NCBI RefSeq assembly: GCF_057098645.1
Contig: NZ_CM169472.1
Reading direction: 5' to 3' (one strand)
Length of the DNA: 64,000 nucleotides
The first letter of the stretch is position 1; the number at the start of each line of letters is the position of its first letter. This document shows, in pieces, positions 33,865 through 62,739 of the stretch. Under the pieces are notes generated by a model. That model had not been told where the DNA came from, did no database searches, and was given only the letters and a program-made list of their open reading frames with translations. Both the position numbers and the translations under genes were made by a program.

Positions 33865-33990
33865 ACGCTTTTCCTTGTGGATCTCAACTCGCCAGCACCT
33901 ATCTTACATGCCGGTCCGTATCAGAGATACTTTTTGAGTGGCTTTGCCGGTGATTAAAAATCAAGGAGGGTGTAACGACAAGTTGCAGGC

Positions 33991-34016
33991 ACAAAAAAAC
34001 CACCCGAAGGTGGTTT
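33991..34016 (-). terminator. rho-independent terminator at the original leuZ 3-prime flank
   Basis: aaaaaaaccaccc gaa ggtggttt hairpin; left copy of the repeat. Confidence 0.6.
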
Positions 34017-34059
34017 CACGACACTGCTTATTGCTTTGATTTTATTCTTATCTTTCCCA

Positions 34060-34115
34060 TGGTACCCGGAGCGGGACTTGAACCCGCACAGCGCGAACGC
34101 CGAGGGATTTTAAAT
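34060..34115 (-). other. tRNA-Leu 3-prime fragment (integration remnant)
   Basis: tggtacccggagcgggacttgaacccgcacagcgcgaacgccgagggattttaaat equals the 3-prime part of leuZ; 5-prime part replaced by island sequence. Confidence 0.85.
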
Positions 34116-44188: not shown

Positions 44189-45245
44189 GGCTTTGTTGAA
44201 TAAATCAGATTTCGGGTAAGTCTCCCCCGTAGCGGGTTGTGTTTTCAGGCAATACGCACGCTTTCAGGCATACCTGCTTTCGTCATTTTGTTCAGCGCTC
44301 GTACCAGGGCCATAGCCTCCGCAACCTGACCATCGTAGTCACGCAGCGTCAGTGAACCCCCGAACAGCTGTTTTACCCGGTACATCGCCGTTTCCGCTAT
44401 CGAGCGACGGTTGTAATCTGTTGTCCATTTCCACCGCGCATTACTCCCGGTCATTCGCTGATTAGCCACTGCACGGTTACGGTCTGCATATTCACCGGGC
44501 CAGTAGCCCGCACCTTTTCGGGGAGGGATAAGCGCGCTGATTTTCTTACGCCGCAGTTCATCGTGACATAGCCGGGTATCGTAAGCGCCATCGGCGGCGG
44601 CTGACCTGATTTTCCGGTGGGTTTGCCGGATTAACCCGGGGAAGGCCTCTGAGTCCGTAACGTTGTTCAGCGACAGGTCTGCACAGATGATTTCATGTGT
44701 TTTACTGTCAACGGCGAGATGCAGCTTACGCCAGATACGGCGGCGTTCCTGGCCATGCTTTTTGACTTTCCACTCGCCTTCACCGAAGACCTTCAGCCCG
44801 GTGGAATCAATCACCAGATGTGCGATTTCACCCCGGGTGGGCGTTTTGAAACTGACATTAACCGACTTTGCCCGCCTGCTGACACAGCTGTAATCCGGGC
44901 AGCGTAGCGGAACGTTCATCAGAGAAAAAATGGAATCAATAAAGCCCTGCGCAGCGCGCAGGGTCAGCCTGAATACGCGTTTAATGACCAGCACAGTCGT
45001 GATGGCAAGGTCAGAATAGCGCTGAGGTCTGCCTCGTGAAGAAGGTGTTGCTGACTCATACCAGGCCTGAATAGCTTCATCATCCAGCCAGAAAGTTATG
45101 GAGCCACGGTTGATGAGGGCTTTATTGTAGGTGGGCCAGTTGGTGATTTTGAACTTTTGCTTTGCCACGGAACGGTCTGCGTTGTCGGGAAGATGCGTGA
45201 TCTGATCCTTCAACTCAGCAAAAGTTCGATTTATTCAACAAAGCC
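44189..45245 (-). mobile_element. IS903-like element (IS5 family), copy 1, 1057 bp
   Basis: Terminal inverted repeats GGCTTTGTTGAATAAATC; 9-bp target duplication GTGAGAAGC at 44180-44188 and 45246-45254. Confidence 0.9.
44245..45213 (-). CDS. IS903-like transposase
   Basis: 322-aa ORF; recognised by eye as IS903/IS102-type transposase. Confidence 0.85.
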   Translation of the reverse strand: MKDQITHLPDNADRSVAKQKFKITNWPTYNKALINRGSITFWLDDEAIQAWYESATPSSRGRPQRYSDLAITTVLVIKRVFRLTLRAAQGFIDSIFSLMNVPLRCPDYSCVSRRAKSVNVSFKTPTRGEIAHLVIDSTGLKVFGEGEWKVKKHGQERRRIWRKLHLAVDSKTHEIICADLSLNNVTDSEAFPGLIRQTHRKIRSAAADGAYDTRLCHDELRRKKISALIPPRKGAGYWPGEYADRNRAVANQRMTGSNARWKWTTDYNRRSIAETAMYRVKQLFGGSLTLRDYDGQVAEAMALVRALNKMTKAGMPESVRIA

Positions 45246-51440: not shown

Positions 51441-51608
51441 TTGAATCTTTCTGCATCCACGGTTGCGTCAGATATTTCTCGCAATCCCGGAAAACTCCCG
51501 CCCTTCATCAGAATTGGGCGGGCTATACGATTCTCTCTTGACGATATTGTTGATTGGGAAAATGCACATCGTCAAAACAAACTTAAAGGTGATATAAATG
51601 GTTACTAA
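51441..51608 (+). CDS. AlpA-like excisionase / HTH regulator (short ORF, no ATG; possibly TTG-initiated or a remnant)
   Basis: Translation LNLSASTVASDISRNPGKLPPFIRIGRAIRFSLDDIVDWENAH resembles AlpA-type HTH; frame opens right after a TGA. Confidence 0.4.
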   Translation: MNLSASTVASDISRNPGKLPPFIRIGRAIRFSLDDIVDWENAHRQNKLKGDINGY

Positions 51609-51786
51609 GAACACGGAAAATAACGCTAATAATGCACTGAACATTCTTCCCGAATCAGCAAGCACAGCTGTAGACAACGATGAAAAATATCTGTCCTTTG
51701 CATTAGTTCTCGCTATCACGATTATGGGCAACTGAACCGCCCCGGGAATCCTGGAGACTAAACTTCCTGAGAAAGAGGTAAACAGG

Positions 51787-52113
51787 ATGACTAAAAATAC
51801 TCGTTTTTCCCCTGAAGTCCGTCAACGGGCAGTCCGTATGGTTCTGGAAAGTCAGGGCGAATATGACTCACAATGGGCGACAATTTGTTCCATTGCTCCA
51901 AAGATTGGCTGTACGCCGGAGACTCTGCGTGTCTGGGTTCGCCAGCATGAGCGGGATACCGGGGGCGGTGATGGAGGGCTCACCACCGCTGAACGTCAGC
52001 GTCTGAAAGAGCTGGAGCGTGAAAATCGTGAACTGCGCCGCAGTAACGATATCCTTCGCCAGGCTTCCGCTTATTTTGCGAAGGCGGAGTTCGACCGCCT
52101 CTGGAAAAAATGA
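51787..52113 (+). CDS. IS629 OrfA (transposase N-terminal HTH part)
   Basis: 108-aa [22 protein letters not shown]... Confidence 0.85.
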
Positions 52114-53000
52114 TGCCACTGCTGGATAAGCTGCGTGAGCAGTACGGGGTCGGACCGCTATGCAGCGAACTGCATATTGCCCCGTCAACGTATTACCACT
52201 GTCAGCAACAGCGACATCATCCGGATAAACGCAGTGCCCGTGCGCAGCGCGATGACTGGCTGAAGAAAGAGATACAGCGCGTATACGATGAAAATCACAA
52301 GGTATACGGTGTGCGTAAAGTCTGGCGTCAGTTGTTACGGGAAGGTATCAGAGTGGCCAGATGCACTGTGGCACGTCTCATGGCGGTTATGGGACTTGCC
52401 GGTGTTCTCCGGGGTAAAAAGGTCCGTACGACCATCAGCCGGAAAGCCGTTGCCGCAGGCGACCGCGTAAACCGTCAGTTCGTGGCAGAACGACCTGACC
52501 AGCTGTGGGTGGCTGATTTTACTTACGTCAGCACATGGCAGGGCTTCGTCTATGTGGCGTTCATCATTGATGTGTTTGCCGGATACATTGTGGGGTGGCG
52601 GGTCTCATCGTCCATGGAGACGACATTCGTGCTGGATGCACTGGAGCAGGCGTTATGGGCCCGTCGACCGTCCGGCACGGTCCATCACAGTGATAAAGGT
52701 TCTCAGTATGTATCGCTGGCCTACACACAGCGGCTTAAGGAAGCCGGATTACTGGCATCAACAGGAAGTACAGGCGACTCGTATGACAACGCGATGGCGG
52801 AGAGCATCAATGGTCTTTACAAAGCGGAGGTAATACACCGTAAGAGCTGGAAAAACCGTGCAGAAGTGGAACTGGCCACACTCACGTGGGTGGACTGGTA
52901 TAACAATCGACGATTGCTGGAAAGGCTGGGCCATACTCCTCCGGCAGAAGCAGAAAAAGCTTATTATGCTTCCATCGGAAACGATGATCTGGCAGCCTGA
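52110..53000 (+). CDS. IS629 OrfB (transposase catalytic part, DDE)
   Basis: 296-aa ORF overlapping orfA. Confidence 0.85.
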
Positions 53001-53662
53001 GTTCACAGATAAAACACTCTCCAGGAAACCCGGGGCGGTTCAAACTTAGTAAAGCTCATCGGCACAGATGGCTTCATACTTTATACCTACACCCTGCAGG
53101 ACACGGCTACTGCTCGTGCTGTTTTTAATGAATTAGCCAGGCGTCTCAAAAATTTCAATCGTCAGGAGGAGGTCTACACCACCGATTCCCTCACCTTTCG
53201 AATGAAATACATTTACGGTGTTACCCTGTTCGAACATGATAGTAAATCTATCCTTAACCTTTTTGATAAGAAGGGTTATCCAGTATTGAGTGAATCAGGA
53301 GAACCCGGTTCTCTTGATGATATGTATCTTGACATTCAAGCCCGATTACATGGCGGCTACGCCTCAAAAAAGTTTCTTCATTTACATGAACATTGTCTGT
53401 TATCTGCACACGTTACCCCGTCTGTGGAAAAGACGCAACGTGGTATCCTGATTAAAGCAGGCAGGAAACTCGTTTCCTTTATCTATGCAGATAATGAATC
53501 TCGCAAAAATGATATTTTCAAAGCTGTAGTAGACGTCATTAAATCCTGATTCATTATGCCGGGTGCGTATTCCGCTCTATTCGATCACGGATTGGCATCG
53601 AAGTCCGATCAGCGATTCGCATCCATTCGATCAACCGGGAACTTAACTTTTTCTACCGCTTT

Positions 53663-54421
53663 TTAACGCGTTTTTTCGCTGCTTTCCACTACCGGGGGAT
53701 TTTTCCTCAGTGACTCTCCCTGAAGGACCACTCGGTGTGAGTTATGTACCAGTCTGTCCAGGATGGCATCTGCTGTTGTTGGGTTCTCCATCAGACCATG
53801 CCATTTATCTACCGGGAACTGGCTTACCACTATCGTGCTGCTTTGTCCGTAACGATCCTCTATGAGCTCCAGAAGGTCATTACACTGGGCGTTACTTAAC
53901 TGTTCCAGCCCCAGATCGTCCAGGATTAGAACCTGTATTTTTTGCAACTGTTTCAGATATTTCAGCCAGCTGCCATCAACACGTCCCTGAGCCAGTTGTT
54001 CCAGTAATCGCCCGGTTCTACAGTACCGGACGCTGTGTTTCTGTCGACATGCCTGTTCGCCCAGCGCATTGGCTATCCAGCTCTTGCCACATCCTGTCGG
54101 ACCGGTTATCAGCAGGTTTTTCCTGTGGGTTATGTAGTGGCCGTTCAGCAGTTCTCTCATCTGTTCAGCCCGCAGACCTCTTGAGGCCGGATAGCGCAGC
54201 CCTTCCGGTGTTGCCTGGTATTTCAGGCCGGCATTTTTTCTCAACCGTGCCACACGGCTGTTTTCCCTGCTCAGAAGCTCGTCATCAACCAGCAGCGTCA
54301 GCCTTTCCTCGAACGACAGTTCGTCGTAGGTCTGAGGCGTTTCCCGCTGCCGTATCAGGCTCCCGGCCATCGCCGGGAGTTTCAGTTGGGTCAGTTTGTT
54401 TAACAGGTTATCACTCATACT
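53663..54421 (-). CDS. istB: IS21-family IstB ATP-binding helper protein
   Basis: Start at MSDNLLNKL; Walker A GPTGCGKS. Confidence 0.75.
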   Translation of the reverse strand, partial: SMSDNLLNKLTQLKLPAMAGSLIRQRETPQTYDELSFEERLTLLVDDELLSRENSRVARLRKNAGLKYQATPEGLRYPASRGLRAEQMRELLNGHYITHRKNLLITGPTGCGKSWIANALGEQACRQKHSVRYCRTGRLLEQLAQGRVDGSWLKYLKQLQKIQVLILDDLGLEQLSNAQCNDLLELIEDRYGQSSTIVVSQFPVDKWHGLMENPTTADAILDRLVHNSHRVVLQGESLRKNPPVVESSEKTR

Positions 54422-54434
54422 GTTGTTCCTTCTG

Positions 54435-55970
54435 TCAGTGGTAGTAGCCCGGACCACGCAGGTTTTCATGCTCTGAAGCATATGCCGGATGTTGTTCGCC
54501 CTGGCGGGATAATGGAAGCTCCAGGTTCTCCCGATGGTGACGCAGCAGATTGTCGATAAAGCGTCTGTCAGGGGCGTTATAGTGCAGGGCAACGTAACAG
54601 GCCTTTTCCAGCCGTTCCGGGCCGTATTTTTTCTGAAGTGCCAGCAGCCCCAGAACTGCACGATAAGCCAGTTCCGGATGGGGTTTTGCCTTCAGCATGG
54701 ATTCAACCACCCGGCCTGTGGACGGGCCCGTACGTTTTCCCTGCTCGATCAGGCGTTCCGGTGTCCATGTCCCGTGCTGCCGGTGGCGCTCTGGCATGTG
54801 AAGCGGATTGGTTGTGTGTTTATATTCATGTGTGCTGCGCGGATGTTGCGCCACACACTGCCCCTTGTGCCAGAGCTGTACCACCGACTGCCCCGCCTTC
54901 AGTGACAGACGCTGACCGACCAGTTCGTGTGGAACGGAGTACCAGTGACGGGCATATTCAACGTGGTAGTCAGGGCCAACCTTCACAGCTTTGTATTCCG
55001 TGTATTCATAAGGTGCCAGAGGCAGCGGAGAGAGTGCTGGCGCATCCAGTATGCGGAAGCGTTCTGCACGGGTTTGATTGCCGTACCCCTTCATTGGCCG
55101 GTTATTCATGTCTGTCAGTAACTCCCTAAGGCGCGCATTCAGCGCCCTGAGCGTGTGGAAGGTTTCATTACGGATGCGGGCAAGAAGCCATCGTTCAACG
55201 ATGAGGACGCCGTTTTCTGCTTTTGGTTTATCTTTAGGTTTGCGTGGTCGGGCCGGGATGATAACCGTGCCATAGTGCTCAGCCAGTGCCTGATAACTGT
55301 CGTTGATGACAGGCTCATATCGATCGGCCTTTTTCACTGCGCTTCTGAGGTTATCGGGGATGAGCAGCTTCGGTACGCCGCCCAGGAAGGTCAGGCAACG
55401 GCTGTGGGCATTTAACCATGACATCATGTCCTGACCTTCGCACGCTTCAACGTAGGTATAGTTGGACGCCCCCATTACGGCCACGAAGATTGCCACGCGG
55501 CGTATCTCACCGGTGTCCGGATTAATAACAGGAACCGTAGGACCACAGAAGTCGATAAAAAGCTTTTCGCCGGCACGATGCTCCTGGCGCATGGAGAGAC
55601 GTCGCGTTTTTTTCCACTCCCGGTAGCAACGGCAGAAGTGCGAGTATCCCATCGCTTTGTTACCCGCCTGTGCCTTGTATTCCATCCACAACAGTTGCCG
55701 CGTCACACCTGGTTTTCTCATTTCCGTATCGAAGTACAACATGTCAGGCATTACAAGCTCTGATGCAAAGGTGTCTTTGGGCGGAAAAATGAGTTTCTCC
55801 AGCGTGTCATGGGATATATCAGCAGGTAATGGCCATGACAGAGAAGAGGCTTTGAAGCGGGCAAGAACCTCAAAAACGGTTGAGGCGCTGATGTGTAACG
55901 TCAGTCCGATACAACGGTTAGTCAGCTTCTTGTCGAACTTGAGCTGAAGGATCTTAAAACAGGTTTCCAT
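54435..55970 (-). CDS. istA: IS21-family transposase IstA
   Basis: Start chosen at METCFKIL; DDE integrase-type fold; precedes istB. Confidence 0.7.
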   Translation of the reverse strand: METCFKILQLKFDKKLTNRCIGLTLHISASTVFEVLARFKASSLSWPLPADISHDTLEKLIFPPKDTFASELVMPDMLYFDTEMRKPGVTRQLLWMEYKAQAGNKAMGYSHFCRCYREWKKTRRLSMRQEHRAGEKLFIDFCGPTVPVINPDTGEIRRVAIFVAVMGASNYTYVEACEGQDMMSWLNAHSRCLTFLGGVPKLLIPDNLRSAVKKADRYEPVINDSYQALAEHYGTVIIPARPRKPKDKPKAENGVLIVERWLLARIRNETFHTLRALNARLRELLTDMNNRPMKGYGNQTRAERFRILDAPALSPLPLAPYEYTEYKAVKVGPDYHVEYARHWYSVPHELVGQRLSLKAGQSVVQLWHKGQCVAQHPRSTHEYKHTTNPLHMPERHRQHGTWTPERLIEQGKRTGPSTGRVVESMLKAKPHPELAYRAVLGLLALQKKYGPERLEKACYVALHYNAPDRRFIDNLLRHHRENLELPLSRQGEQHPAYASEHENLRGPGYYH

Positions 55971-56594
55971 AGTGCTCCTGGATTTTCTCTTTCTGGACAT
56001 TGACGTCTCCACTGGTTTAAACACGGCAATGGAGACTGTGGTGAAAAGAGTTAATTCCCGGAGTGACTGGCAGGATGCCAATCAATGATCGGAAGCATGC
56101 CAAATCGTGATCGATTGTGATGCCAAACTGTGATCGGAGATGGATGCCAAATCATGATCGATTCGAATGCCAAACTGCGATCGATTCAGATGCCATTTTG
56201 CAGCCGGGGGGGACGAACTCCCGGCATTTTTTCGGAGTTAACTATGAGCAATAATTTGCAGGACATCCTCGCTGCCGCATCGGGGTATCAGTCCGTGACT
56301 TCAGAGCCAGCGCTCAATCTTAAAAGACCTAAAACGCTTGATGATTATCCTGTGATACCACCTGCATCAAAAAAAGTATCTGTTATTTCAAGTGACCTGA
56401 CACTCCATATCGGTTTTGATACCGAATATGTTTTCAATCCTGAAACACAACAGAATGATATTCTGTCATATCAGAGTTATGTTGTCTTACCCGATAATAC
56501 AGGTATATCGAACATTATCTATCCACCTGACTCACAGAAAAAATCCCGGCTGTCTTTTAAGAACTTTCTCTGTCAAACGATTATGGATTTGCCC

Positions 56595-57500
56595 CTATAT
56601 TTCCAGACATCTGTTATCACTTAACCCATTACAAGCCCGCTGCCGCAGATATTCCCGTGGCGAGCGATAACCCAGCGCACTATGCGGATGCCATTCGTTA
56701 TAATGCTCGAACGCCTCTGCAAGGTTCTTTGCTGCCGTTAACCCGTCTGGTTTGGGCATGATACTGATGTAGTCACGCTTTATCGTTTTCACGAAGCTCT
56801 CTGCTATTCCGTTACTCTCCGGACTCCGCACCGCCGTGTTCTTCGGTTCAAGTCCCAACATCCGGGCGAACTGGCGTGTTTCATTAGCCCGGTAGCATGA
56901 ACCATTATCCGTCAGCCACTCCACTGGAGACGACGGAAGATCGTTGCCGAAGCGGCGTTCCACCGCTCCCAGCATGACGTCCTGTACTGTTTCACTGTTG
57001 AAGCCGCCGGTAGTCACCGCCCAGTGCAGTGCCTCACGATCACAGCAGTCCAGCGCGAACGTGACACGCAGTCTCTCTCCGTTATCACAGCAGAACTCGA
57101 ACCCGTCAGAGCACCATCGCTGATTGCTTTCTTTCACGGCCACTCTGCCTGTATGTGCCCGTTTCGATGGCGGTACAGCAGGTTTTCGCTCAAGCAACAG
57201 CGCATTCTGGCGCATGATCCGGTAAACACGTTTGGCATTGATCGCAGGCATACCATCAAGTTCTGCCTGTCTGCGAAGCAGCGCCCATACCCGACGATAA
57301 CCATACGTGGGCAGCTCTCCGATAACATGGTGTATACGGAGAAGCACATCCGTATCATCAGTGTGACGACTGCGGCGGCCATCCATCCAGTCATCGGTTC
57401 GTCTGAGAATGACGTGCAACTGCGCACGCGACACCCGGAGACAACGGCTGACTAAGCTTACTCCCCATCCCCGGGCAATAAGGGCGCGTGCGCTATCCAC
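56595..57500 (-). CDS. insD: IS2 transposase InsD
   Basis: 301-aa ORF. Confidence 0.85.
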
Positions 57501-57823
57501 TTTTTTGCCCGTCCATATTCAACGGCTTCTTTGAGGAGTTCATTTTCCATCGTTTTCTTGCCGAGCAGGCGCTGGAGTTCTTTAATCTGCTTCATGGCGG
57601 CAGCAAGTTCAGAGGCAGGAACAACCTGTTCTCCGGCGGCCACAGCAGTAAGACTTCCTTCCTGGTATTGCTTACGCCAGAGAAATAACTGGCTGGCTGC
57701 TACACCATGTTGCCGGGCAACGAGGGAGACCGTCATCCCCGGTTCAAAGCTCTGCTGAACAATTGCGATCTTTTCCTGTGTGGTACGCCGTCTGCGTTTC
57801 TCCGGCCCTAAGACATCAATCAT
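57458..57823 (-). CDS. insC: IS2 InsC
   Basis: Start at [13 protein letters not shown], 121 aa. Confidence 0.85.
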
Positions 57824-59974
57824 CTGTTCTCCAATGACTAGTCTAAAAACTAGTATTAAGACTATCACTTATTTAAGTGATACTGGTTGTCTGGAGATTC
57901 AGGGGGCCAGTCTAGATTACACCGCTTCTTGAAACGGGTGTGATTACAAAATGGCCCGGTATTATTAATATATATGCGCATTTCATTCGTGCGGATATCA
58001 CCTCCTTTGCCAATTTCTGGTCAGACTACAAAATTCTTCTGAAAGGAATACGCGGTACTGTCAGCAGCTTCAAAAATCGTTACGGTATCGATTTTGATGA
58101 ACAGCAGGAACGTCGCGTAAAGACTGAACAGATAATGTTTGACAAACGAACTTCCCCTCCGCGTTGCAGTAACGTAGCTTTCATCGATACACTGCTTATC
58201 ACTCCCGGGGGTATGGGTCTGGCTGAATGTGGTGAATTACTGGGTCTTCCCAAACTGACCATTCCTGCACCTTATTCCATAACCAATATGCGTGAATATC
58301 TTCTGGGCGACAGAGCAGGGTTTGAAGCCTATGCTCTGCGGGATGCCGAGATTGCGGTTCGTTATGCTTTACAGGTTCGCAATTTTTGCGCCCGGGAGCT
58401 GATGATTGATCGTGTCCCCGCCACCATCGGGGCGATGGCAGTTTCACGGTTCACCAAAACACTTAAAGAAAACAATATGTCTCCTGAAGTCTGCCTTGGG
58501 ACACACATTAAAACCCGTGAACTCTGGCTCACGGAGAAACAGGCATTCCGGACGATTAAAAACCCCGCCAGTGTTCCTTCAAGAGAGCTGTTTGAAACGT
58601 TCCCGATCAACTGTTACCACGGCGGACGCAATGAGTGTTTTATGATGGGGGTTACACCGTCTGATCACTGGTATGACTACGATCTGGCTGGAGCGTATAC
58701 CACCGGGCTATTAGATATCCTCATACCCGATTACGGAAACATCCGCCTCAGTAAAAATCCGGACGATTACTGTGGGCATGTAATGGGATTTGCGTTTGTC
58801 ACATTTCAGTTCCCGGAATCAGTTCCCTATCCCAGCCTGCCGGTTCGGACCGATCAATATGGGTTATTCTTTCCATTAAGTGGCGAATCATGGGCAACGG
58901 CACCTGAAATCGAACTTGCTCTGTCGCTCGGGGCAGAGATGACGATCCATAATGGGATCATCGTCCCCTGGATCTGTGACACCTCCCCACATAACAGCGA
59001 ATCAACATCGGTGTTTCTTCCCTTTGTTCAACAGGTCCGTGAGAACCGTAATCGCCATATTAAAGGTTCTCTGGAGGAGAAATTCTGGAAAGAAATTGGC
59101 AACTCGCTTTATGGCAAACTTGCTCAGGGCCTTCGCGCCAAAACCGCCTTTGATACTGCCCGTGGATTAAACAGATCCCTCCCACCATCATCGGTTACTC
59201 AGCCATTCTTTGCTGCGCATGTGACGGGATTTATCCGCGCCGTTGTCGGGGAACTCATGAATGCTTTGCCTTCTGATTCATCGGTTGTCAGCGTCACAAC
59301 CGATGGCTTTTTGACAAATTGCCCACTTAACAAGATAAACATGAGCGGTCCACTGTCTTCCCGCTTCCAGTCGCTGTGCGATATTGTTGATCCGGGTTCA
59401 TCAATGTTGACATGTAAGCATGAGGTCAGCCAGCTTATCGCCATGAAAACCCGGGGGCAGTTAACCTATAGAGCTATTCAGGGAAAACCTGTTGTTCATG
59501 CCAGGGCTGGCGTCAAACCTCCTGCCGATATTCCACGCAGTGACTATAACGACTATATGGTAGATCTTTACCTTAATCGTTTACCCGGTCAGACGTTATC
59601 CCGAAGTACGTTGATATCAACGCGTGAGATGTGGCTGTCGGAAAGCGATCTGGTATCCCGGGAACAGGATATCCGTCTTAATCTGGAATTCGATTTCAAA
59701 CGCCAGCCCGTACAGCCCGCCATGAATGAAGGGCATTTACTGATGTCTTCCCGCCCATGGGATAATATGGAAGAGGCTCTGCAGCAACGCTCTCTTTTCG
59801 ACGACTGGCGGCAAACGCATACACTGAAGACCCTGGCTGACTGGGATGACTGGTGTGATTTTCTCTATTGCCGGACGGTGTTTTCTGATATGAAACTAAA
59901 AGTCGGAAGCAAACGTAGTGATGATATTTTAGTCAGACTATTTCTCCGGGCGCTGACTCAGTGCCAATGGGGGC

Positions 59975-60523
59975 TTATGCTGAAAGATAAAAAAAGTTAT
60001 TCCTGTAAAGAGGTTGCTGAATGGCTGACGTCAGAAGGCTATTCAGTAACATGTCAAAAAGCACCTGCTGGATCTCCCGGGCCCGAAGGTCGCAGTAACG
60101 TATCTTCCCCAGACGAGGTTCAATGTATTGCGTGAAACGCTGAACATCCTTATCCCAGGACTTTTTATGGCGTTTGATGAACGGAACATAGGTCTGGTGA
60201 AAAAACTCACTAAGTGTTGGCATCGCACGATAATTATCGCGTTCTGCTTTAGGGTCATTTCCCAGTGCAATCGCCTCCTTGTGACGACGAGCTATCTGAC
60301 GGGCTGTCCCCACATCGATTTCAGGGAATCTGCCAATACTGATACTTTTTTTGGTACCGTGGAATGTGTAGCGCAGGAGGAAACGTTTGTTACCCGTTCG
60401 ACCTGAGAGACATTTGAGGCCTATGACCTCGGTATCTGATACCTCAAGCTCTGTAGATCGGGTATCTGTGTTTGCCGGAAGGGCTTTGATGGATGAATTG
60501 GTGAATCGGAAGGATTTTTGCAT
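59975..60523 (-). pseudogene. N-terminal fragment of a P4-type tyrosine integrase (arm-binding domain), truncated
   Basis: MQKSFRFTNSSIKALP ... GRFPEIDVGTARQIARRHKEAIALGNDP resembles integrase N-terminal domain; no catalytic domain follows; overlaps piPolB 3-prime end on the opposite strand. Confidence 0.5.
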
Positions 60524-60709
60524 ATTTATCCTCATGTATCTGATTGATATCATGAAAATAATATATATCTGAAGGTGTTTTTATTACGGGGCAGGATTGA
60601 AGAATGGAAAAGCTATTAGACGCGTACAAACGGATATTGCAGGAAGTTAACGCCCAGTCATTTAACCTGAATGAGGATAAATACTCAGGCGTCTTTTTAC
60701 CCGTGCCGT

Positions 60710-61766
60710 GGCTTTGTTGAATAAATCGAACTTTTGCTGAGTTGAAGGATCAGATCACGCATCTTCCCGACAACGCAGACCGTTCCGTGGCAAAGCAAAA
60801 GTTCAAAATCACCAACTGGCCCACCTACAATAAAGCCCTCATCAACCGTGGCTCCATAACTTTCTGGCTGGATGATGAAGCTATTCAGGCCTGGTATGAG
60901 TCAGCAACACCTTCTTCACGAGGCAGACCTCAGCGCTATTCTGACCTTGCCATCACGACTGTGCTGGTCATTAAACGCGTATTCAGGCTGACCCTGCGCG
61001 CTGCGCAGGGCTTTATTGATTCCATTTTTTCTCTGATGAACGTTCCGCTACGCTGCCCGGATTACAGCTGTGTCAGCAGGCGGGCAAAGTCGGTTAATGT
61101 CAGTTTCAAAACGCCCACCCGGGGTGAAATCGCACATCTGGTGATTGATTCCACCGGGCTGAAGGTCTTCGGTGAAGGCGAGTGGAAAGTCAAAAAGCAT
61201 GGCCAGGAACGCCGCCGTATCTGGCGTAAGCTGCATCTCGCCGTTGACAGTAAAACACATGAAATCATCTGTGCAGACCTGTCGCTGAACAACGTTACGG
61301 ACTCAGAGGCCTTCCCCGGGTTAATCCGGCAAACCCACCGGAAAATCAGGTCAGCCGCCGCCGATGGCGCTTACGATACCCGGCTATGTCACGATGAACT
61401 GCGGCGTAAGAAAATCAGCGCGCTTATCCCTCCCCGAAAAGGTGCGGGCTACTGGCCCGGTGAATATGCAGACCGTAACCGTGCAGTGGCTAATCAGCGA
61501 ATGACCGGGAGTAATGCGCGGTGGAAATGGACAACAGATTACAACCGTCGCTCGATAGCGGAAACGGCGATGTACCGGGTAAAACAGCTGTTCGGGGGTT
61601 CACTGACGCTGCGTGACTACGATGGTCAGGTTGCGGAGGCTATGGCCCTGGTACGAGCGCTGAACAAAATGACGAAAGCAGGTATGCCTGAAAGCGTGCG
61701 TATTGCCTGAAAACACAACCCGCTACGGGGGAGACTTACCCGAAATCTGATTTATTCAACAAAGCC
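60710..61766 (+). mobile_element. IS903-like element, copy 2, 1057 bp, inverted relative to copy 1
   Basis: Same inverted repeats; 9-bp target duplication CCGTGCCGT at 60701-60709 and 61767-61775. Confidence 0.9.
60742..61710 (+). CDS. IS903-like transposase
   Basis: 322-aa ORF identical in translation to the copy at 44245-45213. Confidence 0.85.
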   Translation: MKDQITHLPDNADRSVAKQKFKITNWPTYNKALINRGSITFWLDDEAIQAWYESATPSSRGRPQRYSDLAITTVLVIKRVFRLTLRAAQGFIDSIFSLMNVPLRCPDYSCVSRRAKSVNVSFKTPTRGEIAHLVIDSTGLKVFGEGEWKVKKHGQERRRIWRKLHLAVDSKTHEIICADLSLNNVTDSEAFPGLIRQTHRKIRSAAADGAYDTRLCHDELRRKKISALIPPRKGAGYWPGEYADRNRAVANQRMTGSNARWKWTTDYNRRSIAETAMYRVKQLFGGSLTLRDYDGQVAEAMALVRALNKMTKAGMPESVRIA

Positions 61767-62578
61767 CCGTGCCGTTTGAAGAATACTGGCATTCACCGAT
61801 AAAAATCATGCTGGTTGGACGTGAAACCGCAGGCTGGAATACGCTGAATGGTAAGAATACGATATCACGGGTGTTGGGACTTATACCTGACGTCACCATC
61901 GGGCAAGTGGTTGAAGAAGCTGTAGATCGTTACAGGAAACATCTTCCGGTACAAAATTATGGCACCGCCAACCTCAAATCACGTAGCCGCTTCACGCAAT
62001 ATCATTTCAGGCTGGCCCGGGAGCTTAATATTCTTCCCCAGGCAATCGTGTATGCCAATCTACTGGCGTGGGATTACGACGGACTGACCCCTCTCAATCG
62101 CCCTCAAAATGAAGTGCAGGAAGTCATATTAGCCTCGCTGAAGCTACTGGCGGTACAAATTAAACACCTTGAGCCTGATTTCATCATCTTTGCATCTGGA
62201 GCCCGGAGAACAGACTACATCATAAAACAGGTGCTTACTGAGCTAGGCGGCTATGAGACTTCTTCAGTCATTCCGGGGAAGCTGTGGGAGTTCAAAACAG
62301 GTAATACAATCTGTTTCAGAATTGCCCATCCAAGGGCTATGCGCGGACACCAGAAGTACAGAGATGAGGTGATTGCACGAATTAAGCAACTTTGTACTCA
62401 GGGTGGCTAGAGCATTACAGCTTGCTCAGCAGGGCCCCTTCCCGGAAGAGTACCGGAAAACAGGCAAAGCAACCTGGTTCTCTATGCTGGAGGCGACACG
62501 TTCGATTCGGCATTGCCAGGCTGGAGATTGCAGCTCATTGCACCCCGTGAGCACAGGATATGCACAGGACATGAATTT

Positions 62579-62708
62579 CAGGCACAAAAAAACCACCCGG
62601 AGGTGGTTTCACGACACTGCTTATTGCTTTGATTTTATTCTTATCTTTCCCATGGTACCCGGAGCGGGACTTGAACCCGCACAGCGCGAACGCCGAGGGA
62701 TTTTAAAT
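62579..62708. repeat. attR: 130-bp direct repeat (leuZ 3-prime part plus downstream flank)
   Basis: Matches 33986-34115 with 1 mismatch. Confidence 0.9.
62584..62609 (-). terminator. rho-independent terminator downstream of leuZ (copy within attR)
   Basis: aaaaaaaccaccc gga ggtggttt. Confidence 0.6.
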
Positions 62709-62739
62709 CCCTTGTGTCTACCGATTCCACCATCCGGGC
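62653..62739 (-). tRNA. leuZ: tRNA-Leu
   Basis: 87-nt sequence, reverse complement GCCCGGATGGTGGAATCGGTAGACACAAGGGATTTAAAATCCC...GGGTACCA. Confidence 0.9.

What the first reader, a model, noticed from the sequence alone, without database searches (positions are those of the whole stretch)
53557..56243. IS21-family element with multiple terminal repeats ending 17 bp upstream of the polymerase start
The right end of the IS (repeated TGCCAAAYYGTGATCG motifs) abuts the RBS/ATG of the polymerase gene, so any outward-reading promoter from the IS could drive or perturb its transcription.
Basis: inference. Interest (0 to 1): 0.3.

Follow-up and report, generated by a model that had tools for sequence, protein, structure and literature searches.

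The report
Ordinary IS21-family insertion, ends re-mapped
This is an ordinary, already known jumping gene (an IS21-family insertion sequence) that landed in the short spacer before a polymerase gene, but its true end lies 41 bases from that gene, a transcription stop signal sits in between, and the polymerase gene was already broken, so it almost certainly does not drive it.

Summary
An IS21-family element is present, but at 53564..56202 (2,639 bp, istA and istB on the minus strand), not 53557..56226/56243. It is 100% identical to full-length copies in many E. coli chromosomes and plasmids, where PGAP labels IstB "ISSso4 family". Ten other copies share the same termini (TGCAAAATGG…GAATACGCA) and carry 5-7 bp target duplications.

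Here the duplication is GCCGGG. Three E. coli loci and one draft contig show the empty site.

The duplication rebuilds an 8-bp-stem terminator plus T6 between the IS end and the polymerase ATG (56244), 41 nt away.

The repeated GATGCCAAAYYRTGATCG motifs are real (6 versus 0.41 expected). They are the family's usual multiple transposase-binding repeats, five internal copies at the left end and two at the right.

The end facing the polymerase is the left (istA) end. No outward sigma-70-like promoter was found there.

The polymerase is a pipolin piPolB, split by IS2 340 bp into the gene. A draft genome has the IS2 and IS629 junctions but lacks the IS21 element, so this insertion came last.

Verdict: a known element and a probably neutral insertion. 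The regulatory idea is unsupported.

The parts
53558..53563 (.). Left copy of the 6-bp target-site duplication GCCGGG
   Evidence: Identical hexamer at 56203-56208. Empty-site relatives overlap by exactly these 6 bp (L013, L014).
53564..56202 (-). Complete IS21-family insertion sequence (ISSso4-like), 2,639 bp, termini 5'-TG...CA-3'
   Evidence: 100% identical full-length copies in many E. coli replicons. Homology to copies in other contexts stops at these bases. Ten copies have the same ends and 5-7 bp TSDs.
53564..53623 (-). Right TIR (istB-distal end): terminal TGCGTATTCCGCTC plus two internal CGATCNNNNNTTSGCAT repeats at IS-end offsets 19 and 43
53663..54418 (-). istB, 251-aa AAA+ helper ATPase (Walker A GPTGCGKS)
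   Evidence: PF01695 at 205.7 bits. NF038214 at 257.8 bits against a cut-off of 200. Identical copies are annotated by PGAP as 'IS21-like element ISSso4 family helper ATPase IstB'.
54435..55970 (-). istA, 511-aa DDE transposase (D140, D206, E252)
   Evidence: NF033546 at 284.7 bits against a cut-off of 160. Aligns to IS5376 IstA (PDB 8b4h/8q4d, E=6e-14) with its D124/D187/E233 matched. Coordinates taken from the PGAP annotation of an identical copy.
56074..56202 (-). Left TIR (istA-proximal end): terminal TGCAAAATGGCATC plus five internal repeats at IS offsets 20, 43, 67, 90 and 112 (22-24 bp apart)
56203..56208 (.). Right copy of the target-site duplication GCCGGG
56203..56232 (+). Intrinsic terminator rebuilt by the TSD: stem GCCGGGGG/CTCCCGGC (56203-56225) followed by T6 (56227-56232). 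The original hairpin was a 10-bp stem, ATGCCGGGGG...CTCCCGGCAT
   Evidence: Terminator scans in the window and in the empty site of L013. Fold of -17.3 kcal/mol. The hairpin arms are present in three empty-site loci, with loops that differ in sequence and length.
56244..56583 (+). 5' fragment (codons 1 to about 113) of the piPolB polymerase gene; RBS GGAG at 56234-56237
   Evidence: tblastn with the intact 866-aa homologue; blastn against L013.
56584..57914 (-). IS2 (1,331 bp, TSD GATTA) splitting the polymerase gene
57915..60135 (+). 3' part of the piPolB gene, carrying KH-X8-KTRG, NSLYGK and TTDG motifs
   Evidence: motif definition from PMC5695915.
53043..53549 (+). 3' part of the upstream 212-aa hypothetical gene whose terminator was hit (5' part at 51598-51732, separated by an IS629-like element)

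Best explanation
Window 53564..56202 is a complete and probably still active copy of a known 2,639-bp IS21-family insertion sequence (ISSso4-like). It follows the standard family mechanism. The DDE transposase IstA binds the multiple 17-18-bp repeats in the two terminal inverted repeats. The AAA+ helper IstB captures the target. The 3'-CA ends are joined to staggered cuts, which leaves a short duplication, here 6 bp (GCCGGG). The element landed in the 5' arm of the intrinsic terminator hairpin, inside the roughly 50-nt spacer between a hypothetical gene and the piPolB polymerase gene of a pipolin integrated at tRNA-Leu. Its istA end faces the polymerase gene. Because the duplication rebuilds most of the hairpin, a terminator still stands between the IS and the polymerase RBS. 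The insertion came after IS2 had already split the polymerase gene. It is therefore best read as a neutral, recent IS hit in a decaying mobile island, not as a regulatory event. Shown here: the boundaries, TSD, gene content, repeat architecture, empty sites and order of insertions. Inferred: the transposition mechanism (from family knowledge) and the absence of any effect on polymerase expression.
For: Identity and ends: the element is 100% identical over 2,639 bp to copies in many E. coli chromosomes and plasmids, up to 34 places per genome. With 200-bp flanks added, unrelated copies align only from query 199-201 to 2839-2840, which is window 53562-53564 to 56202-56203. Eleven copies share the termini, and ten of them carry 5-7 bp TSDs.
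Empty sites: L013 at 99.8-100% identity overlaps by 6 bp. L001 and L002 show the same. L014 is 100% identical and reads ...ATGCCGGGGGGGACGAACTCCCGGCATTTTTT....
Proteins: IstA and IstB both pass the NCBIfam equivalog cut-offs, and the DDE triad aligns to IS5376 IstA.
Repeats: 6 motif matches against 0.41 expected, placed at 22-24 bp spacing.
Terminator.
No outward promoter.
Orientation logic: in IS21 the -10 is in the left TIR and the -35 in the right TIR (PMC10122671).
Polymerase already broken. L014 has the IS629 and IS2 junctions but no IS21 element.
Against: No transcription data are available. Consensus scans miss weak or non-sigma-70 promoters. An 8-bp-stem terminator may leak. The ISfinder name could not be checked directly; it rests only on PGAP's label for the identical IstB. 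The order of insertions rests on one draft contig. Precise excision of the IS21 element in that lineage is formally possible, but IS21-family elements rarely excise precisely.
Confidence: 0.9

Rival explanations
1. One reading: the IS end abuts the polymerase RBS/ATG, and an outward-reading promoter in that end drives or perturbs polymerase transcription.
For: Many IS ends do carry outward promoter elements, as stated generally in PMC10122671. The IS is only 41 nt from the ATG.
Against: The facing end is the left TIR, whose known promoter element in IS21 is the inward -10. No + strand site reaches 9/12. The best lenient hit is 8/12 with a 15-nt spacer at 56063-56089. A complete terminator lies at 56203-56232. 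The gene is split by IS2, and that split predates this insertion.
Confidence: 0.04
2. Polar, silencing effect: the 2.6-kb insertion cuts the polymerase gene off from read-through transcription from the upstream integrase-HTH-hypothetical operon. It would therefore lower polymerase expression rather than raise it.
For: In empty sites the polymerase gene starts 46-50 nt after the upstream ORF. No promoter-like site lies between them. The nearest + strand promoter-like site is upstream of the integrase gene.
Against: The native spacer already holds a 10-bp-stem terminator. The upstream gene had been cut by an IS629-like element, and the polymerase gene by IS2, before this insertion. There was therefore no functional expression left to lose.
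Confidence: 0.05
3. The element really ends at TGCCGGG (53557) and CCCGGCA (56226), with those 7-bp inverted repeats as its termini.
For: They form a perfect 7-bp inverted repeat with the TG...CA signature.
Against: Both arms are present, side by side, in four loci that lack the IS. Ten other copies of the IS lack them at their flanks.
Confidence: 0.01

Closest known systems
ISSso4-like IS21-family insertion sequence of Shigella/E. coli
   Same: 100% nucleotide identity over the whole 2,639 bp to copies in E. coli. In those copies PGAP labels IstB (WP_001282653.1) 'IS21-like element ISSso4 family helper ATPase' and labels IstA (WP_045147483.1) 'IS21 family transposase'.
   Different: Nothing differs in the element itself; only the insertion site is new. 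This site is not occupied in any of 5,426 complete E. coli genomes or in the GTDB species representatives. Identity to the ISfinder ISSso4 reference could not be checked here.
IS21 (Pseudomonas R68.45) and IS5376 (Geobacillus), the characterised family prototypes
   Same: An istA-istB operon, a DDE triad, an AAA+ IstB, TG...CA termini, multiple direct repeats in both TIRs and a short TSD.
   Different: The proteins are only distantly related (IstA against IS5376 gives E=6e-14). The left end has five internal repeats plus the terminal one, whereas prototypical family members including IS5376 are described with two repeats per end, L1/L2 and R1/R2. The TSD is 5-7 bp, whereas the 5 bp reported is for IS5376 in vitro.
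E. coli pipolins (piPolB-encoding self-replicating elements at tRNA-Leu)
   Same: The flanking polymerase carries the piPolB signature KH-X8-KTRG (KHEVSQLIAMKTRG). The island is bounded by 133-bp direct repeats, one of which overlaps tRNA-Leu. It also holds a tyrosine recombinase and type I R-M genes.
   Different: Here piPolB is split by IS2, and the island has taken four further IS insertions. Truncated piPolB genes and IS-containing pipolins have already been reported (PMC7385651).

Membership tests
IS21 family | IstA DDE transposase | tested here: met
   NF033546 at 284.7 bits against a cut-off of 160. D140/D206/E252 align with D124/D187/E233 of IS5376 IstA. Pfam rve scores 32.1, just under its 32.6 cut-off, and Mu-transpos_C_2 scores 72.1.
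IS21 family | IstB AAA+ helper ATPase encoded just downstream of istA on the same strand | tested here: met
   PF01695 at 205.7 bits. NF038214 at 257.8 bits against a cut-off of 200. Walker A is GPTGCGKS. There are 16 nt between the istA stop and the istB ATG.
IS21 family | Imperfect terminal inverted repeats ending 5'-TG...CA-3' | tested here: met
   TGCAAAATGGCATC... and ...GAGCGGAATACGCA, identical in 11 copies.
IS21 family | Multiple direct repeats (transposase-binding sites) inside each TIR | tested here: met
   Five internal repeats at the left end and two at the right end. Six motif matches against 0.41 expected. The family feature is described in PMC10122671.
IS21 family | Short target-site duplication (4-8 bp) | tested here: met
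   6 bp here. Ten other copies give 5-7 bp in nine cases and a single 3-bp case. Empty sites confirm the 6 bp.
IS21 family | Demonstrated transposition | not testable with these tools
   Indirect evidence only: identical copies at many different sites, up to 34 places per genome.
ISSso4 (ISfinder entry) | High nucleotide identity to the ISfinder reference sequence | not testable with these tools
   ISfinder is not available here. The only support is the PGAP name on the identical IstB.
IS that activates a neighbouring gene through an outward promoter | A -35 element or full promoter in the IS end facing the gene, with no terminator in between | tested here: not met
   No + strand promoter-like site. 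The facing end is the left TIR. A terminator lies at 56203-56232.
piPolB / pipolin (context of the 'polymerase') | PolB with a KH-X8-KTRG motif in place of KxY, on an element at a tRNA gene flanked by direct repeats | tested here: met
   KHEVSQLIAMKTRG in the ORF at 57940-60135, with the motif definition from PMC5695915. Repeats at 33983-34115 and 62576-62708, the latter overlapping tRNA-Leu. Pfam DNA_pol_B_2 scores only 15.3 bits, below its cut-off.

The most novel reading that the evidence does not exclude
The insertion into a terminator hairpin might not be accidental. On this reading, this IS21-family element (through IstB) would prefer GC-rich palindromic or deformable DNA such as terminator stems. 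Its long left end (six IstA sites over about 130 bp) could then also act as a transcriptional insulator or carry a cryptic outward promoter. Two of the 11 sites share a CCCGG(C) duplication, but reconstructed targets show no consistent hairpin signal.
Probability: 0.04. Interest if true: 0.3.

Novelty: already known. Interest (0 to 1): 0.07.

Why it matters
It matters little beyond correct annotation. The re-mapping shows how host hairpin arms split by an insertion can pass for IS terminal repeats. It dates this insertion as the latest of at least three IS hits around the polymerase gene (five in the island overall) that are degrading a pipolin, a self-replicating defence island. Because the polymerase gene was already dead, no regulatory consequence is expected.

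Tried and rejected
1. An exact-match scan of GTDB species-representative genomes for the left junction (TTCATTATGCCGGGTGCGTATTCCGCTCTATTCG) found nothing. The source genome stays unidentified, and no complete E. coli RefSeq genome has the IS at this site.
2. Pfam scans of the polymerase fragments and the upstream ORF gave no hits. The intact homologue gave only a sub-threshold DNA_pol_B_2 hit, no NCBIfam hit and no PDB sequence relative. The polymerase was identified instead from its motifs and from the pipolin literature.
3. Hairpin or target-structure preference was tested on 11 reconstructed target sites. Z-scores ranged from -2.5 to +1.8 with no trend, so the idea was rejected.
4. A lenient promoter scan (at least 7/12, spacer 15-19) of both IS ends and junctions found nothing convincing towards the polymerase.
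6. A literature search for ISSso4 confirmed that it is a recognised Shigella sonnei/E. coli IS. It gave no length or end sequences to compare.

Full report
**What is at the coordinates**

The region holds two minus-strand genes and clusters of a repeated 17-18-bp motif at both ends.

- The 511-aa product (55970..54435) passes the NCBIfam equivalog for IS21-family transposases, at 284.7 bits against a cut-off of 160.
- It aligns to the structurally characterised IS5376 IstA (PDB 8b4h/8q4d, E=6e-14). Its D140, D206 and E252 sit opposite that protein's catalytic D124, D187 and E233.
- The 251-aa product (54418..53663) is an IstB AAA+ helper. It scores 205.7 bits on PF01695 and 257.8 bits on NF038214 against a cut-off of 200, and its Walker A is GPTGCGKS.
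- The motif GATGCCAAAYYRTGATCG, allowing up to 3 mismatches, occurs six times in the 64-kb window. All six lie at the two ends of this element, against 0.41 expected by chance.

**Exact ends**

- A megablast of 53564-56202 finds 100% identical, full-length (2,639 bp) copies in many E. coli chromosomes and plasmids, with up to 34 places per genome. PGAP annotates their genes as "istA: IS21 family transposase" and "istB: IS21-like element ISSso4 family helper ATPase IstB".
- When 200 bp of flank is added on each side, copies in unrelated contexts align only from query 199-201 to 2839-2840. That corresponds to window 53562-53564 to 56202-56203.
- I fetched ten other copies with their flanks. All begin TGCAAAATGGCATC and end GAGCGGAATACGCA, and nine carry a 5-7 bp direct duplication of different sequence.
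- In the window the duplication is the hexamer GCCGGG, at 53558-53563 and 56203-56208.

**Empty sites**

- E. coli G1/2 (L013) is 99.8-100% identical on both flanks and overlaps them by exactly 6 bp.
- Two more distant pipolins (L001, L002) show the same uninterrupted spacer.
- A 1,029-bp contig of the draft genome GCA_029357705.1 (L014) is 100% identical to window 52976-53563 joined to 56203-56649, again with a 6-bp overlap.

- The uninterrupted spacer reads TGATTCATT-ATGCCGGGGG-GGACGAA-CTCCCGGCAT-TTTTT-CGGAGTTAACT-ATG. It is a 10-bp-stem hairpin with a T-run, which the scan scores as an intrinsic terminator in the empty site.
- The stem arms are present in three empty-site loci, while the loop differs in sequence and length.
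- The IS inserted into the 5' arm. They form a perfect 7-bp TG…CA inverted repeat that looks like IS termini.
- The true IS end is 56202, 41 nt before the ATG.

**Consequence for the regulatory idea**

- The 6-bp duplication re-creates most of the 5' arm. A terminator therefore remains between the IS and the polymerase RBS (GGAG, 56234-56237): stem GCCGGGGG/CTCCCGGC at 56203-56225, -17.3 kcal/mol, followed by T6.
- The end facing the polymerase is the left TIR, upstream of istA.
- In IS21 the left TIR carries a -10 that reads inward. The outward-facing -35 lies in the right TIR (PMC10122671). Here the right TIR points away from the polymerase.
- The strict scan finds no + strand promoter-like site in 53100-56700.
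- A lenient scan finds at best 8/12 with a 15-nt spacer at 56063-56089, and nothing spanning the junction.

**State of the polymerase gene**

- The polymerase carries PolB motifs and the piPolB signature KH-X8-KTRG, as KHEVSQLIAMKTRG (definition in PMC5695915).
- It sits in an island bounded by 133-bp direct repeats (33983-34115 and 62576-62708). The second repeat overlaps tRNA-Leu, as described for E. coli pipolins.
- The gene is split after about codon 113 by IS2 (56584-57914, TSD GATTA).
- The upstream 212-aa gene is split by an IS629-like element (51733-53042).
- L014 contains both of those IS junctions but not the IS21 element. The IS21 insertion is therefore the most recent event, and it landed next to a gene that was already inactivated.

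**Architecture of the ends**

- Reading inward from the left end, the internal repeats CGATCNNNNNTTGGCAT start at IS positions 20, 43, 67, 90 and 112, so they are 22-24 bp apart. The terminal 14 bp shares the …TGGCATC part of the motif.
- The right end has two repeats, at positions 19 and 43.
- This fits the family's known design of several IstA-binding repeats per end, with a longer left array than in IS5376.
- A further inner inverted repeat (53635-53653 and 56043-56061) was seen.

**Target choice**

Across 11 reconstructed target sites there is no consistent secondary-structure signal. Hitting a terminator here looks incidental.

**Verdict**

This is a known, intact IS21-family (ISSso4-like) element, correctly recognised but wrongly delimited. 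The proposed outward-promoter effect on the polymerase is unsupported by orientation, sequence, the intervening terminator and the prior inactivation of the gene. Novelty: already known. Interest: low.

Noticed in passing
window 33983-62708: The whole region is a pipolin of about 28.7 kb, a piPolB-encoding mobile island. It is bounded by 133-bp direct repeats (33983-34115 and 62576-62708, 98.5% identical). The right repeat overlaps tRNA-Leu(taa) at 62653-62739, which is followed by tRNA-Cys and tRNA-Gly.
   Followed up: partly
window 56584-57914: IS2 (1,331 bp, TSD GATTA) splits the piPolB gene after about codon 113.
   Followed up: yes
window 51733-53042: An IS629-like IS3-family element (1,310 bp, TSD AAC) splits the 212-aa hypothetical gene upstream of piPolB.
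   Followed up: partly
window 44189-45245 (-) and 60710-61766 (+): Two IS903-like copies with identical 322-aa ORFs (TTG-start, as listed by the ORF listing) lie in inverted orientation and bracket about 15 kb of the pipolin. Each has its own 9-bp TSD (GTGAGAAGC and CCGTGCCGT), so they are independent insertions. Together they could act as a composite transposon.
   Followed up: partly
L014 (GCA_029357705.1, contig JAOYLW010000164.1): This draft-genome contig is 100% identical to the window flanks. It has the IS629 and IS2 junctions but lacks the IS21 element, which makes the IS21 insertion the youngest event.
   Followed up: yes
window 56000-55968 (minus strand): istA has two in-frame ATG codons 10 codons apart (56000 and 55970), each preceded by a GGAG or AGGAG Shine-Dalgarno sequence. 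From memory, this recalls the two IstA products of IS21 (transposase and cointegrase). PGAP annotates the downstream start.
   Followed up: no
window 53579-53553 (minus strand): A weak hybrid promoter-like site reads out of the right TIR, leftwards and antisense into the upstream ORF. It has TAGAGC in the IS, a 15-nt spacer and CATAAT in the flank, for 8/12 matches.
   Followed up: no
window 59975-60553 (minus strand): A truncated tyrosine recombinase with only the Arm DNA-binding domain overlaps the 3' end of the piPolB ORF. The same is seen in strain G1/2, and it has been reported for phylogroup D pipolins (PMC7385651).
   Followed up: partly
window 53635-53653 and 56043-56061: An additional inner inverted repeat (CCGGGAAYTTAACTYTTTTC) lies inside both IS ends, beyond the multiple repeats. 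Its function is unknown.
   Followed up: no
L003 (E. coli 3R) and L011 (E. coli KMi025): Two independent insertions of the same IS lie in a 'dynamin family protein' gene, with different TSDs (CCCGG and GTAAA). The 3R copy's TSD resembles the one in the window.
   Followed up: no
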